DNA of 64,000 nt, taken from Phycisphaerae bacterium. GTDB taxonomy: Bacteria; Planctomycetota; Phycisphaerae; Tepidisphaerales; Tepidisphaeraceae. The stretch covers positions 1 through 64,000 of the forward strand of contig JANMES010000057.1 of NCBI GenBank assembly GCA_031377185.1, given 5' to 3'. Positions 15,001 through 24,000 of this stretch are shown here, piece after piece. Within the stretch, counting starts at the first letter, position 1, and each line of letters starts with the position of its first letter. A program made the position numbers.

Positions 15001-18000
15001 TCGGCCGTTCAGCGGGAGCTGGCGTATCACGCGGTCGAACAACTCATGCCTTCTCTGGTCGCAGGTGCTTTGCTGACCATCGTGATTACAGAATTCAATC
15101 TGCAGGCCACGGTGCTGCTGCCAGGACTTTGGGCGATCCTGCTCGGGCTGGGCGTGTTCGCGTCGCGCCGGCTGCTGCCGCGGGCAACGGCGCTGGTCGG
15201 CGGGTATTACCTGATGGCCGGTCTGATCATTCTTTGCGAGTTCCGCGGCGTCGCGGCGTTCAACCCGTGGGTCATGGGCGTCACCTTCAGCGTTGGGCAA
15301 TTTCTGGCAGCAGGCGTGCTGTGGTGGACGCTCGAGCGATCGGAATCGGAGGCTGACCATGGGACAGCCTAGAAAACCCTCCGGCAATCCGCCCGGCCAA
15401 TACGCTTACGAAGGCCTCGACCGCCTGCTGCACGAACGCTCGCGGCTAAGCATTCTTTCATCGCTGATGGGACATCCACAGGGGTTGCTATTCAACGATC
15501 TGAAAGATCTCTGCTCGCTGACGGATGGCAACCTTTCGCGGCAGATTCAGATCCTGCAGGAAGCCAATCTGCTGGAAGTATGGAAGAGCATGAACAAGGG
15601 CCGTCCGCAAACCCTTTGCCGGCTGACGGATACGGGTCGCGAGCGGTTCACGCAGTACTTGCATCAACTGGAAGAAGTCATCGCCAACGCCAGCAAGGCG
15701 CGCCCCGCCGGGTCGAGCGTCGGCGGGTCGTTTAAGCCATCGCTCGGGTAGTTATTATTTTGTATTCAAACCCTATATTTTAAAGCATTGGAGACATTTA
15801 TGCTCAACTGGCTCAATCATCTTGACCGAATTCTCCGCGGCGAGGCCACCAAGCCCGATCAACTGGTCGGCGGGACGCTAAAAGTGCCGGTTTTCGGCTT
15901 AGCCGTGGTGATCGACGCGCTCGGGCTGATTTACGGCGCGTGCATGGGCCTGTTTTCGGTCATGGGGAAGGATACCTCCCGCTGGATGCAGATCCCGGCC
16001 TCCATGGTAAAAGTACCCGCGTTGTTCCTGCTTACCCTGGTGATCACCGTACCATCACTTTACACGTTCAACGCGCTGGTAGGTTCGCGCCTGAAAATGC
16101 TACCGGTCATTCGACTTCTTACCGCTTCCGTCGCGGTGATGCTGGCGGTGCTGGCGTCGCTGGGGACGATCGTGGCGTTTTTCTCAGTCAGCACGACCAG
16201 CTACTCGTTCATGGTATTGCTGAACGTGGCGGTTTTTGCGATTTCCGGTGTACTTGGCTTGCGTTTTCTATTGCAGACTCTGCACCGGATGTCGCTTGCA
16301 GCCAACAGCGAGCAAACCGATTGGCCAGAAGAACCCAGCGCGTCTGCCGTTCTTCCACCGCCGATTCCGGTTGCGCCGGTCGGCCGTAGCGTGAAAGTGG
16401 TTTTTCGCATCTGGCTGATTGTCTTTGGACTGGTCGGAGCACAAATGGGGTGGGTGCTCCGGCCGTTCATCGGCAATCCGAACCAGCCGTTCACCTGGCT
16501 GAGGCCTCGTCAGTCGAACTTCTTCGAAGCCGTCGGCGCGCACGCCGCCTCACTCATGGGGTGGAACAAGCCTTGGGATCAACGCGGCGATCGGTGATTT
16601 TGCTCTCTGAAGTGCCCATGTAACCGCACCATCATCCCGAAGTACTTCGAGGGATGCCGGTTGCTGGCTCGTACGACTCGCACTGTAAAGACCCACATGT
16701 TCTGCCTAACCGACATCGATCGCATCCTCCGCGGGCAGCTCACCTCTACGCGCCGGATGATCGTCGTGATTGCAGTCTTTTCAATCGCATATGGCTTGGT
16801 GATGGGTTCCTTCAGCGTTGACGGGCATATGCGAGTGAAACAGATGGTTTTTTCCGGCACCAAAATGCCTCTGCTGCTGTTGGTCACGTTCGCCATCAGC
16901 CTTCCGAGTTTTTTTGTGCTGAACACTCTGATGGGCGTGCGGGACGACTTCCCCGCCGCGCTGCGGGCTTTGGCGGCCACTCAGGCGTGCCTGGCGATTG
17001 TCCTGACCAGCCTCGCCCCGCTGACGGCGCTTTGGTACGCATCGTCGGCCGCCTACGAGCGTGCGGTAATGTTTAACGCGTTGATGTTCACCATCGCGTC
17101 GCTGGCCGCCCAGTGGATGCTCCGAAGGCTTTACAAGCCGCTGATCGAGCGAGATACACGTCATAGGCTGCTGCTTCGCGGCTGGCTGGTGATTTATGCA
17201 TTTGTGGGAATCCAGATGGGCTGGGTGCTTCGCCCGTTTATCGGCAACCCGGGCGTGCCGACGCAGTTCTTCCGGGCCGAGTCATGGGGCAACGCTTATG
17301 TCGTCGTTTGGGATCTGATCGCCAAAAGCCTTCACTGAACGTTCGCTTCCGCTTGCAATCCCCCACAAGTACCGATAAAACCGCCACCTAGGATAAGCCT
17401 CATGGATGAGGCTACGGCAAGCGCGTGAAATTTAATCTCATTGATCAAATCGAGCAGTTGTCGGATGAACGCATCGTCGCGGTGAAAACCGTGTCGCTGG
17501 CCGAGGAATATCTGGCCGACCATTTCCCCACGTTTCCGGTGTTGCCGGGCGTGATGATGCTCGAAGCGATCACCCAGGCGGCCGGTTGGCTGCTCCACCA
17601 TCGCACGCAGTTCGGGCGGTCGATGGCGGTGCTGAAAGAAGCGAAAAACGTCAAGTACGGGCATTTTGTCGCACCGGGGAACAAGCTGCGGGTGGAAGTC
17701 GATTATCTTAAACCAACCGACGCCGGCGCTTCGTTCAAAGCCGTCGGTTATGTCGGCGATCAAACCGCATTACAGGCCCGCGTTGAACTGGCGTACTTCA
17801 ACCTAGGCGACAAGCAGCCGGCGCTGGCGCATCTGGATGCGAAGCTGGCCGAGCATACGAAACACCGCTGGACCGTTCTCCAACAGGGACGGGTGGAAAT
17901 GTAGGGTGGGCGCTGCCCACCACGCCAGCAGAGGTGGGCATAGCCCACCCTCTGATAAGGAAAGGACACTCTCATGGCCATGACTCGTGACGAAGTTTAC

Positions 18001-21000: not shown

Positions 21001-24000
21001 GTCACCCGCGAGCTGGAGCAGGAGCCGAACATGCCCCTCTCCCACTTGGCGCTGCTCACCGGCGCGCGGGGGCCGGCAATGAATTGCCTCACCGCCTGCG
21101 CCGCTAGCACGCAAGCCCTCGGCGAGGCGGCTGACATCCTCCGCCGCGGCGATGCGGATGTCATGATCGGCGGAGGCGCTCACTCGATGATCCACCCGTT
21201 CGGCGTTACCGGCTTTAACCGCCTGACCGCGCTGGCTGAGAACCAGAAACTGATCGACTCGATCGGTACCGACGAGCCGCGCAAAGCCAGTCGGCCGTTC
21301 GACGGCAAGCGCGGCGGGTTCGTACTCGGCGAAGGCGCGGGCATGCTCATCCTCGAAACCCTCGACCATGCCAAGGCCCGCGGCGCGACCATCCTGGCGG
21401 AGATCGCCGGCTACGGCAGCACCGCCGACGCGTACCGCATCACCGATCAGGACCCGGAAGGCCTCGGCGCCATCAACGCGATGAAAGAAGCGCTGGCCGA
21501 CGCCAAGCTGTCGCCGACGGATGTCGACTACATCAACGCACACGGCACGGGCACCAGCGAGAACGACGGCAATGAAACCAGTGCGATCAAGAAAGTCTTC
21601 GGCGACCACGCCCGCAAAGTGCCCGTCAGCAGCATCAAGAGCATGATGGGCCACTTAATTGCTGCGGCCGGCGCGGTGGAGACGATCTGCTGCGTGCTGG
21701 CGATCCGCGACCAGATGCTCCCGCCGACGATGAACCTGGATTTTGCCGATCCCGAGTGCGATCTGGACTACGTGCCGAACAAGGCCCGTCCCGGCAAGAT
21801 CGATGTGGTGATGAGCAACAAATACGGGTTCGGCGGGCAGAACGATACAATCATCGTGAAACGGTTCGCCAAATGAGGGGATAGAATCATTGGCGATCGG
21901 GCCATTGACGATTGAGGGACAAAATCTTCAATCGTCAATGGCCCGATCGTCAATGAACAAATTTCCATCCAAATACATCCTTGATCCCCTGCTAACACAA
22001 CCCTTGCGCAACGTTTGTATTCTCATTAGCGATCTTAACCTCAAGGAGAAACGAATGAAGCGAGTGTTTATCGGATTGATCGGCCTGTCAGCATTCATCG
22101 GCTGCGCTGCCAAGCCCGCCACCCCCGCCGGTCCGGCAAAGGCGGATTACTTTGAAGTCAATAAGAACGGCCAAGTGTACGTCTTCAGCGACGTGAAAAC
22201 GATGCAGTCGTTCATCAAAACCGGCGAATCCGGGCCAACCGTCTCTGATTACTTCGGCTCCAAGATCGTCAGCTTTCAAGCCACCGGCGACCAAAGCCGC
22301 CTGATGAAGGAATACGAAAAGCAGCACAAGTAGGAGTCGAACCTCGAAGAAGCGAAGATGCGAAGCGGCACTCGATCCAGTTGAGTGCCGCTTTTTATTG
22401 TTCCACTTTTGACTTCATCAACTCTTTCGGGATGCCGAGCGCCCACAATGTTTCGGGCGATGATATGCGGTACTGCATGAACTCGGCGTGACCGTCGCCG
22501 AACAATACGGTCATCCCGTCCTGATCGTGGTTTTTCAGAAACTCAATAACCACCGCCAGATCAGCCATACCGGCGTTTTGTTTGATGTAGATGTACGAAC
22601 TGTGTTTGGGATCGAGCAAGTCTGCCGCCAACTGCGCCTGCGAGGTGGCAGTTGACGCCTCGGCCGTTCCTGAGGGACAGATAAAGACGCTAGGCGTGAG
22701 ATCTTCTGTCGCGATTAACTCCGAGAGCTGATCGGGATAACGGCCCTGATGTTCATCGGCGAACATTTTTAACGCGATCCCGATCTGCTTCATGTTGGAA
22801 GCGCATTTCACGCGATTGGCCGTCTCGGACGACTTGCACAAGTTCGGAAGCAACATCGAGCCGAGCAAAAATACGCCACCGATGACCACCACCCCCGGCA
22901 CGATCCAACGGGGCAATCGCATACCGGATTTTTGCGGGGCGTTATCCAGTGAAGTGGGAGAGGCGGTCGAGGAACTCGTCGGGGCCGATAGTTTGGTCAT
23001 CGAAACCTCCGGTTGTGGAATCTAGGGTGCGAAAAATTATACCTTCCGTACTACCGAGATTGCCACAGAATTATCTTGGCACCAGCCGAAGCCCCTCGCC
23101 CTTCCAGAGGTCGGCCAGTCCCTGCACCATCCACTGCTCTCGTCCGACTTTGGGGTCGGCCATGTCGACTTTGTTATCGCTCGCAGTGCCCAAAAAGACG
23201 ACAGAATGCAGCGTGCCCGGTGCCCAGCCCCAGTCGCGGCTGTAACGCGGATCTGCCACTTGCCATCGGCCCAAGCCTACGGAGAGCAATGTGGGTGCAT
23301 TTGCAGCGGCGAGTTGTTCGACTCGGCCCGTCACGGGCTCCACTCGCCACGGCGTACCGAACGATTTAATCACCAAACCGCGGTAGATACCCTGCATCGA
23401 TGTGCCTTGATCCGTGGTGAAGCAAAGTTCAGCCATCTCCTGCTCGGTGGCCGGTATCCCGTGTATTGTCAGGAACGTGGCGGCTGCGGCGGCGCTGCAG
23501 GAGGCCTCGGAACTTTGCATGCACACGCCGTTTTTCCATCGGGGATTCAGATGAGGCTTAGCACGGAACAACCCGCCGTACGCCTGATACAGGCACGCCA
23601 AGACGAGGATCGCCGCAAAGGCCGACCGTACCACCCAAGGCCCCTTCGATAGCCGCAGCATTACCGCCGCCAAGGTCGCGGCGGCAAATGGCGTGAAGTT
23701 CGCGAGAACGATGAAGTCGCGCCAGCGGAACCATCGTAAGAGCGCAACCGATCCGCTCAGCCAGAACGCATCGATCACAAGCCAGAGAAGGGATAATCCC
23801 GCAAGAAGTGTCGCCGCCCACGTCCGCCGCACCCAGCGAAACGTCCCCACACCCACCGCAGCGGCCGCGACGATCACCAGCATGCATTCGATGACTACGG
23901 AAGTCGGCATAGCTACGAACATTGTAGCGTCGTCACTTGATATCCACTTCATCGTTCAAAATCCGTGTGCCCACCAATTCTTTCACGCCGGATCGAACTT

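What a model noticed while it worked through the whole genome (the two positions that open the first line are those of the whole stretch)
17425..21876. Core CLF/KS + long-ACP + twin FabZ cluster: a second, specialised acyl-chain synthase of non-anammox planctomycetes
Beside the normal fab operon lies fabZ, a 127-aa ACP with a ~50-aa extra segment, fabZ, a catalytically dead ketosynthase and an active ketosynthase. Reading: an essential second elongation system (KS/chain-length-factor pair on its own ACP) that makes the very long (omega-1)-hydroxy acyl chains of planctomycete envelopes, parallel to rhizobial AcpXL. New: a candidate pathway for these lipids and an essential, lineage-specific ACP type.
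Evidence so far: g00262 has Cys->Asp and both catalytic His replaced, while g00263 keeps the triad. The dead KS is in 39 of 40 family genomes at 60-77% (52). The long ACP is in 17 of 120 phylum genomes (43) and has about 8000 database homologs (49). The order fabZ-SDR-ACP-fabZ-(KS) is seen in 4 of 4 loci of one other-class family (199). P. limnophila Plim_3120-3124 (KS, FabZ, ACP, SDR, FabZ; same order) are all in the essential-gene heat map of PMC10632474, besides the normal fab genes Plim_2562-2568 (191, 193, 201). C26-C32 (omega-1)-OH acids are reported from planctomycetes (PMC3327967 passages, 210).
(Added by a program. Inside this text positions count along the whole contig: contig position 1 is position 1 of the stretch shown here. 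"Call 12" and the like, gene names such as g00115 and contig names such as C1 are that model's own, and its searches are not shown. The text may have been shortened before it was handed on; [...] marks where a part breaks off. The agent that wrote the report below was given it as the finding of a first reader that could run no searches.)

Follow-up and report, generated by a model that had tools for sequence, protein, structure and literature searches.

The report
Planctomycete second fatty-acid elongation module
Nearly all sampled bacteria of the two main planctomycete classes carry, apart from their normal fatty-acid genes, a second chain-building kit with an oversized carrier protein and two likely paired half-enzymes; it appears essential in a model species and likely makes the very long hydroxy fatty acids of their cell envelope, for which no genes were found in print.

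Summary
The five genes are real: FabZ1, a 127-aa insert-bearing ACP, FabZ2, a dead ketosynthase (Cys>Asp) and an active one. The normal fab operon lies on another contig. The ACP is core, nearly always single-copy: 99 of 101 own-class and 121 of 121 Planctomycetia-class genomes, none of 11 in the ladderane-cluster family. New here: both enzyme pairs show complementary decay, pointing to two obligate heterodimers (FabZ1 keeps His+Pro-Gly 101/101, FabZ2 keeps Glu 108/108; acidic versus hydrophobic KS interface helices). The dead KS descends from an active paralogue, still intact in one family, and is duplicated in some Planctomycetia. P. limnophila Plim_3120-3124 fit by order and by lengths computed from the supplement, not by sequence. 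The module is not orthologous to rhizobial AcpXL or anammox Cluster I, and related long ACPs occur in Streptomyces clusters, so the ACP type is not planctomycete-only. Likeliest product (about 50%): residue-bound C24-C35 omega/(omega-1)-hydroxy acids; G. obscuriglobus has omega-OH-C24. The acceptor is open: five carriers lack any LpxL. The scan found this module several times before on other genomes.

The parts
17425..17904 (+). FabZ1, hot-dog dehydratase half that keeps the catalytic His33 and the Pro-Gly loop
   Evidence: PF07977 E 3e-18; His 101/101, Pro-Gly 101/101, Glu 94/101 in the family
17974..18357 (+). Long acyl carrier protein (127 aa), phosphopantetheine Ser41 in GAES, folded insert at about residues 62-110
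   Evidence: PF00550; Ser41 invariant in 60 of 60; model pLDDT 85, ACP fold with extra hairpin and helices
18439..18933 (+). FabZ2, dehydratase half that keeps the catalytic Glu48 but has lost the His (Leu34) and the Gly of the Pro-Gly loop
   Evidence: PF07977 E 1e-11; Glu 108/108, Gly 27/108, His 97/108; His>Leu in 11 of 11 own-family loci where FabZ2 was found
18946..20250 (+). Catalytically dead ketosynthase, chain-length-factor-like partner (Cys>Asp, His>Thr, His>Ser; interface helix PLWLLKYLP)
20253..20549 (+). 98-aa hydrophobic ORF inserted between the KS genes; not part of the conserved module
   Evidence: no Pfam/NCBIfam hit; GC3 0.47 against 0.70-0.83 for the five module genes; found in 0 of 13 family loci
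20566..21876 (+). Active ketosynthase KS-A (Cys178-His326-His363) with an acidic interface helix (ELEQEP)

Best explanation
This is a core, second type II elongation module of Phycisphaerae and Planctomycetia, separate from housekeeping FAS II, in which a likely KS/dead-KS heterodimer and a likely single-site FabZ1/FabZ2 heterodimer extend an acyl chain on a dedicated long ACP, most likely to the C24-C35 omega- and (omega-1)-hydroxy fatty acids found bound in planctomycete cell envelopes. Shown: genes, residues, conservation, tree position. Inferred steps: (1) malonyl units and the enoyl reductase come from housekeeping enzymes (no FabD or FabI in the cluster; P. limnophila lists one essential FabI); (2) KS-A condenses, and the dead partner lines its tunnel and sets the length; (3) a cluster FabG where present, otherwise the normal FabG, reduces; (4) His/Pro-Gly of FabZ1 with Glu of FabZ2 dehydrate; (5) the ACP insert shelters the long chain or selects partners; (6) an unlinked acyltransferase (the single-copy LpxL-type protein or a DUF374 protein) would move the chain to lipid A or another bound envelope lipid. 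How the terminal hydroxyl arises (retained 3-hydroxybutyryl primer or later oxidation) is not addressed by any gene in the cluster.
For: Core and single-copy like an envelope housekeeping pathway, not patchy like a secondary-metabolite cluster: 99/101 and 121/121; fully sequenced G001 has only three KAS-II genes, FabF, KS-A and the dead KS. P. limnophila insertion indices 0-0.010 for Plim_3120-3123 against 0.11-0.19 for Plim_3125-3129; Plim_3124 is hit only in its last 110 bp, which also argues against polar effects; computed lengths 429, 162, 128 and 167 aa match KS-A, FabZ2, long ACP and FabZ1. Complementary FabZ residues. Interface helix: dead KS near-invariant and hydrophobic/basic (mean net charge +0.8, n=67), KS-A acidic (-2.6, n=57), FabF +0.9, the same kind of charge asymmetry reported for the anammox heterodimer. 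Same architecture as the rhizobial very-long-chain cluster, whose dead KS also has Glu at the Cys position and whose AcpXL aligns over more residues of the model (88) than any other chain listed. Bound very long hydroxy acids are reported from Telmatocola, Zavarzinella, Gemmata and Lacipirellula; in the last all monoenoic (omega-1)-OH acids are omega-11 while bulk monoenes are omega-7/9, which suggests a separate route. A single-copy LpxL orthologue (E<=1e-49) occurs in 24 of 34 ACP carriers and 1 of 46 others (confounded by kinship to the query); LpxL Plim_1862 is in the essential list.
Against: No experiment ties these genes to any lipid. No acyltransferase, dehydrogenase or hydroxylase recurs beside the cluster in 41 loci. 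Five carriers (86-96% complete) have LpxC and LpxB but no PF03279 protein (four have DUF374), and five more have only distant LpxL matches. I found no report of such acids from Phycisphaerae, the class of this genome, and the P. limnophila summary lists only 3-OH C14/C18/C20 for its LPS. The rhizobial mutants are viable whereas these genes look essential. No enoyl reductase in the cluster, a KS/CLF pair and a single-site dehydratase pair are also the marks of polyene-making type II PKSs. Homologous long ACPs serve Streptomyces secondary-metabolite clusters, one of them without FabG or FabZ, so the insert is not itself a sign of very long chains. The Plim genes were not matched by sequence (one search did not return that genome).
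Confidence: 0.5

Rival explanations
1. The module makes the long 3-hydroxy-C18/C20 acyl-ACP used by LpxA/LpxD as primary chains of lipid A, so it is essential because lipid A is.
For: P. limnophila LPS has 22.5% 3-OH-C20:0 and 3.4% 3-OH-C18:0; lipid A genes are essential; all five carriers without LpxL still have LpxC and LpxB.
Against: Ordinary FAS II can reach C18-C20 (general knowledge); a second dehydratase pair and duplicated chain-length factors seem excessive for it; it leaves the C26-C35 acids without a pathway.
Confidence: 0.15
2. It is a highly reducing type II PKS that makes a polyene or partly unsaturated chain (aryl-polyene/ishigamide logic) for an essential, still unidentified envelope lipid.
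For: KS/CLF pair, single-site dehydratase pair and no enoyl reductase match aryl polyene synthases; its nearest outside relatives are Streptomyces type II clusters.
Against: No starter ligase, methyltransferase, glycosyltransferase or transporter travels with it; PRK09185 and PRK09184 scores are far under cut-off; no universal polyene is among the lipids in the papers read; the common C31:9 alkene is usually ascribed to Pfa/Ole enzymes (recalled).
Confidence: 0.15
3. It supplies a special acyl chain to amino-acid lipids or lipoproteins rather than to LPS, with the acceptor changing between lineages.
For: In the families lacking LpxL the neighbours include a GH3/OlsH-like ligase, an alpha/beta hydrolase, methyltransferases and an aminotransferase.
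Against: These neighbours occur in 3 to 9 of 41 loci; OlsH needs no ACP and its deletion is viable; the very long hydroxy acids are only residue-bound, not extractable.
Confidence: 0.12
4. The KS/dead-KS pair mainly decarboxylates malonyl-ACP and starts short chains, as measured for the anammox heterodimer.
For: The anammox pair gave acetyl- and acetoacetyl-ACP but no elongation in vitro; an acidic residue at the Cys position is kept in 63 of 67 dead KSs, often with His and Lys.
Against: FabH is present in this genome and essential in P. limnophila; FabG and two FabZ imply full cycles; the anammox KSs are a different clade.
Confidence: 0.08

Closest known systems
Rhizobial very-long-chain fatty acid cluster acpXL-fabZXL-fabF2XL-fabF1XL-adhA2XL-lpxXL (PMC11901934)
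   Same: Dedicated extended ACP with a DFLDIVF helix II, FabZ, dead KS (Glu at Cys) before an active KS; proposed product class the same.
   Different: Below every family cut-off that the Sinorhizobium controls pass; separate clades in the tree; two complementary FabZ instead of one; insert about three times longer; no dehydrogenase or LpxXL in the cluster; apparently essential.
Anammox Cluster I (amxACP, amxFabZ, amxFabF2/amxFabFmut; bioRxiv 10.64898/2026.05.19.726425, PMC10139942)
   Same: Same phylum; dead KS upstream of active KS; heterodimer enforced by opposite charges on the interface helices.
   Different: Dead subunit has Val/Thr at Cys; one homomeric FabZ; short ACP; radical SAM and desaturase genes; KSs fetched from a ladderane-type locus fall in another clade; that family lacks the long ACP.
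Highly reducing type II PKSs of aryl polyenes (ApeO/ApeC, ApeI/ApeP) and ishigamide (PMC8041823)
   Same: KS/CLF pair, heterodimeric dehydratase with one active site, FabG-type reductase, no enoyl reductase in the cluster.
   Different: Patchy secondary metabolism with starter, tailoring and export genes and normal-length ACPs; here core, minimal and apparently essential.
Unnamed Streptomyces plasmid type II clusters (e.g. NZ_CP106799.1, NZ_CP108465.1, CP108998.1)
   Same: ACP homologous across the whole insert (35-40%), His-half and Glu-half FabZ, FabG, active KS near the KS-A clade, dead KS.
   Different: Carry FabD, a fused KS-CLF, FabH, oxygenases and cyclases; product not identified; not the rubrolone cluster.

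Membership tests
Rhizobial AcpXL very-long-chain fatty acid system | ACP belongs to AcpXL family (NF005079, cut-off 83 bits) | tested here: not met
   47 bits over residues 8-62; Sinorhizobium control 189.5
Rhizobial AcpXL very-long-chain fatty acid system | KS pair belongs to FabF1XL (NF005076, 629) and FabF2XL (NF005084, 320) | tested here: not met
   301 and 83 bits; controls 770 and 618; separate clades, though FabF1XL placement moved between fast trees
Rhizobial AcpXL very-long-chain fatty acid system | Dedicated ACP, FabZ, dead KS and active KS in one cluster apart from the fab operon | tested here: met
Rhizobial AcpXL very-long-chain fatty acid system | adhA2XL dehydrogenase and lpxXL acyltransferase in the cluster | tested here: not met
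   none among recurring neighbours of 41 loci; genome's LpxL proteins score 132 and 77 against NF005120, cut-off 273, control 385
Rhizobial AcpXL very-long-chain fatty acid system | Product is an (omega-1)-hydroxy very long chain on lipid A | not testable with these tools
   only literature lipid tables of other species
Highly reducing type II PKS (aryl polyene / ishigamide type) | Active KS paired with triad-less CLF | tested here: inconclusive
   residues and interface asymmetry fit; physical pairing not modelled or measured
Highly reducing type II PKS (aryl polyene / ishigamide type) | Heterodimeric dehydratase with a single active site | tested here: inconclusive
   complementary His/Gly versus Glu conservation; sequence evidence only
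Highly reducing type II PKS (aryl polyene / ishigamide type) | Starter-loading, tailoring and export genes in the cluster | tested here: not met
   only FabG recurs widely (19 of 41 loci)
Highly reducing type II PKS (aryl polyene / ishigamide type) | KS falls in the Ape/Iga clade | not tested
   no ApeO or Iga11 sequence in my trees; PRK09185 score 241 against cut-off 407
Highly reducing type II PKS (aryl polyene / ishigamide type) | Conjugated polyene product | not testable with these tools
   no product data
Anammox ladderane Cluster I | B12 radical SAM and desaturase genes with amxACP and amxFabF pair | tested here: not met
   absent from window and core loci; family with TIGR04072 over cut-off has no long ACP in 11 genomes; its KSs form another clade
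Housekeeping FAS II (AcpP/FabF/FabZ) | Genes are the genome's plsX-fabH-fabD-fabG-acpP-fabF set or pass FabF/FabZ/AcpP equivalog cut-offs | tested here: not met
   that operon is on C2 and an lpxC-fabZ-like fusion on C74; TIGR03150 467/494, TIGR01750 83 and 78/155, TIGR00517 54/70

The most novel reading that the evidence does not exclude
Planctomycetes evolved, independently of rhizobia and of anammox bacteria, an essential synthase built from two one-sided heterodimers and a new insert-bearing ACP fold to make membrane-spanning C24-C35 hydroxy acyl chains that hold their outer membrane together in cells where peptidoglycan genes are dispensable; family f56, with both triads intact but already asymmetric interfaces, is a living intermediate between homodimeric FabF and KS/CLF, and the duplicated dead KS of some Planctomycetia splits elongation into two length-controlled stages.
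Probability: 0.3. Interest if true: 0.88.

Novelty: new variant of a known kind. Interest (0 to 1): 0.68.

Why it matters
A five-gene core pathway of the two largest planctomycete classes has no described function in the library searched, although the P. limnophila screen noted five essential ketosynthase paralogues without explaining them. The module explains that puzzle and offers genes for orphan C24-C35 hydroxy acids used as chemotaxonomic markers. It is directly testable in a genetically tractable, harmless species. It also gives a natural series from two active ketosynthases to a KS/chain-length-factor pair, and a carrier-protein fold with no solved structure.

Tried and rejected
1) Matching P. 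limnophila by sequence: the one genome-contig scan covered 14 of 64 parts and its best 80 loci did not include that genome; replaced by length arithmetic on the insertion indices. 2) Streptomyces relatives as rubrolone/isatropolone clusters (a recalled lead): the rubrolone PKS is R1128-like with a plain minimal PKS; rejected, identity left open. 3) A linked acyltransferase: none in 41 neighbourhoods. 4) The cluster FabG as a universal member: beside the ACP in 19 of 41 loci; no distinct orthologue stood out in Phycisphaerae. 5) Promoter and terminator scan: at chance level. 6) Lipid data for Phycisphaerae: no paper held all five terms; PMC11129491, PMC7828035 and PMC12493201 passages gave nothing on very long chains; the Gemmata lipid A paper PMC4751799 is not held. 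7) Complex prediction of FabZ1 with FabZ2 was not available, so pairing rests on sequence alone. 8) Fold searches found only ordinary ACP cores (best Z 13.6); the insert was not searched alone, so it is not shown to be a new fold. 9) ESM Atlas returned only Planctomycetota-rich ACP clusters. 10) The 50%-cluster search gave 203 clusters at E<=1e-30 without names, so it does not fix the taxonomic range. 11) Trees are FastTree, midpoint-rooted; deep nodes are unstable, so only the well-supported clades are used.
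Full report
Observation. The window holds five same-strand genes at 17425-21876. Pfam and NCBIfam call them two FabA/FabZ-like dehydratases, an ACP and two KAS-II-like proteins; none passes the FabF, FabZ or AcpP equivalog cut-off. 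The first KS has Asp, Thr and Ser where FabF has Cys, His and His; the second has the full triad. The housekeeping plsX-fabH-fabD-fabG-acpP-fabF operon is on contig C2, and an lpxC-fabZ-like fusion on C74, so the cluster is additional to the fab operon, not next to it. Proteins 83-85% identical to the ACP are named from Tepidisphaeraceae and Phycisphaerales, which places the genome in Phycisphaerae by inference.

Distribution. A full-length ACP match (E<=1e-27) was found in 47 of 300 genomes drawn evenly from the phylum. Within classes it is near-universal: 99 of 101 own-class genomes and 121 of 121 genomes of the class of G003, inferred to be Planctomycetia because an alignment from its family f9 returned mostly Planctomycetaceae-titled records. 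All but two genomes have one copy. None of 11 genomes of family f38 has it; two of three f38 genomes tested pass the cut-off of the ladderane-cluster radical SAM model TIGR04072. It also occurs in several small families (f12, f49, f56, f69, f73, f79, f91) and was not found in most other sampled families. Of 80 named loci, 72 read fabZ1-(fabG)-ACP-fabZ2 and 37 have the exact order fabZ1-fabG-ACP-fabZ2-KS; named isolates include Thalassoglobus neptunius KOR42, Singulisphaera sp. Ch08 and Kolteria novifilia Pan216. The SDR passes the FabG cut-off. In the own family the dead KS is in 39 of 40 genomes at 60-77% (including unpublished G496) but lies beside the ACP in only 4 of 13 loci: the genes scatter yet are kept.

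The ACP. The model (pLDDT 85, 60-sequence alignment) shows helices I and II, then a folded insert at about 62-110, then the last helix. Fold searches match only the ordinary ACP core; AcpXL (2kw2) aligns over the most residues, 88. The insert is not planctomycete-only: 16 Streptomyces plasmids carry ACPs at 35-40% identity across it, in clusters with FabD, KS, dead KS, a fused KS-CLF and FabH, two of the three read also with FabG and two FabZ. Distant copies at about 30% also sit in patchy planctomycete clusters.

Two likely heterodimers. In FabZ the catalytic His (with the following Pro-Gly) and the catalytic Glu come from different subunits (established knowledge, recalled; PMC10139942 passages describe the His/Glu site). 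FabZ1 keeps His and Pro-Gly in 101 of 101 sequences, Glu in 94; FabZ2 keeps Glu in 108 of 108, the Gly in 27 and His in 97. In the own family FabZ2 has Leu for His in 11 of 11 loci where it was found, and in f56 and Streptomyces the His loop is gone. This is the pattern of a single-site heterodimer such as ApeI/ApeP (PMC8041823 passages). For the KSs, the ten residues before the conserved Asn of the dimer-interface helix are near-invariant PLWLLKYLP in 67 dead KSs (mean net charge +0.8) and acidic xxxxELEQEP in 57 KS-A (-2.6), against +0.9 in 16 FabF (a few genes may be counted twice). The anammox KS/CLF-like pair is held together by the same kind of charge asymmetry (preprint parts 1-4 of 6 read). 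Neither pair was modelled as a complex.

Origin. In trees of 185, about 200 and 85 KSs KS-A is one clade; the dead KSs are one clade (support 0.99) and sister to an active clade, KS-B (0.93-1.0), which shares the PLWLLKYLP helix. Family f56 reads fabZ1-ACP-fabZ2-KS-B-KS-A with both triads intact, the expected state before the partner died. Rhizobial FabF1XL/FabF2XL and KSs from a ladderane-type locus lie elsewhere, though FabF1XL fell nearer, so deep branching is unresolved. Profile scores with positive controls agree that these are not XL-family members. In f9 and related families the dead KS is duplicated; T. neptunius has KS-A, FabF and two dead KSs, and in two of five complete f9 genomes the second dead copy lies about 430 bp after fabF.

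Essentiality. PMC10632474 (passages and two supplements searched) reports five essential ketosynthase paralogues: Plim_1694, 2562, 2564, 3120, 3658. Insertion indices are 0-0.010 for Plim_3120-3123 and 0.024 for Plim_3124, against 0.11-0.19 for Plim_3125-3129; 1694, 2562 and 3658 are low with non-essential neighbours on the sides seen. Reading each index as a fraction gives 128 aa for Plim_3122, 162 for 3121, 167 for 3124, 429 for 3120, 412 for 2564 and 435 for 2562. A 128-aa ACP between a FabG and a FabZ fits the long ACP; 2562, two genes from fabF, fits the second dead KS. The twelve insertions in Plim_3124 all lie in its last 110 bp, upstream of the other genes if they share its strand, so polarity does not explain their essentiality. 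This is a match by order, label and length, not by sequence.

Product. Residue-bound (omega-1)-OH C26-C32 acids occur in Telmatocola and Zavarzinella, and G. obscuriglobus instead has 16.9% omega-OH-C24:0 in the last table column (PMC3327967 section 17; column read from plain text). Lacipirellula has (omega-1)-OH and dihydroxy C28-C35 acids, the monoenes all omega-11 while bulk monoenes are omega-7 and omega-9 (PMC6995999 passages). Such chains need a long-tunnel synthase and a special carrier, as in rhizobia (PMC11901934 passages), and this module is the only extra core FAS-like set I found. Against a simple AcpXL parallel: no acyltransferase is linked; an LpxL orthologue is in 24 of 34 carriers and 1 of 46 non-carriers, but five carriers have no PF03279 protein while keeping LpxC and LpxB, four of them with DUF374 (DUF374 as the LpxJ acyltransferase family is recalled). 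P. limnophila LPS is reported with 3-OH C14, C18 and C20, plus long-chain alcohols and diols in the cells (PMC3035269 passage). I give 0.5 to very long hydroxy chains (about 0.35 to lipid A as the acceptor), 0.15 to 3-OH-C18/C20, 0.15 to a polyene, 0.12 to amino lipids, 0.08 to initiation only.

Novelty. Ten literature searches (listings, with passages of 13 papers) found no description of the module; a CLF catalogue lists Planctomycetes among 14 phyla without detail (PMC10132072 passages). Subscription journals are largely outside the library. Earlier scan notes describe the same module on other genomes. It works like a KS/CLF type II synthase and resembles the AcpXL system in plan, but fails membership of the XL, anammox and aryl-polyene families on the features tested: a new variant of a known kind, of high interest because it is core, apparently essential and testable.

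Noticed in passing
L031-L034 (family f56): The module has two ketosynthases with intact triads (KS-B then KS-A) and a FabZ2 that has lost its whole His loop; a candidate intermediate on the way to KS/CLF.
   Followed up: partly
L071-L073 (Streptomyces plasmids NZ_CP106799.1, NZ_CP108465.1, CP108998.1): Unidentified type II clusters with the long ACP, KS, dead KS, a 785-aa fused KS-CLF, FabH, aldo-keto reductase, FAD oxygenase and ester cyclase; 16 plasmids carry the ACP.
   Followed up: partly
L114/L127 and L116/L126 (G070, G173), L280 (T. neptunius): A second dead-KS paralogue in Planctomycetia, sometimes just downstream of fabF; G173 and G156 also have a second KS-A-like gene.
   Followed up: partly
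G046, G192, G097, G139, G209: Planctomycetota genomes with LpxC and LpxB but no LpxL-family protein; four have DUF374 proteins. Their module sits near GH3-like ligase, hydrolase and methyltransferase genes.
   Followed up: partly
L224, L229, L248: Records titled Candidatus Kuenenia stuttgartiensis or Anaerolineales carry the typical module; the genome of L224 has no ladderane-type radical SAM over cut-off, so the titles may be mislabels.
   Followed up: partly
window 14659-17338: Membrane protein, winged-helix regulator (PF13601) and two related unannotated membrane proteins upstream; the same block precedes the cluster in 2 of 13 family loci.
   Followed up: partly
window 20253-20549: Low-GC 98-aa hydrophobic ORF inserted between the two KS genes; other family members have different spacers there.
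   Followed up: yes
G000 C59 9000-18000 and C121 24000-37200: Two further, patchy type II FAS/PKS-like clusters (one with an LpxL-like acyltransferase and a halogenase-like gene; one with an exporter, thioesterase and condensation-like protein).
   Followed up: no
L260 (G000 C114:12999-16838): The conserved LpxL-type gene is divergent from a DUF374 gene; an LpxL-type gene and a COG2121 gene are in the P. limnophila essential list.
   Followed up: partly
L123, L124, L131, L132, L134, L154, L161, L163: Another very conserved stand-alone active KS clade in Planctomycetia with a short ACP nearby in one locus; function not examined.
   Followed up: no
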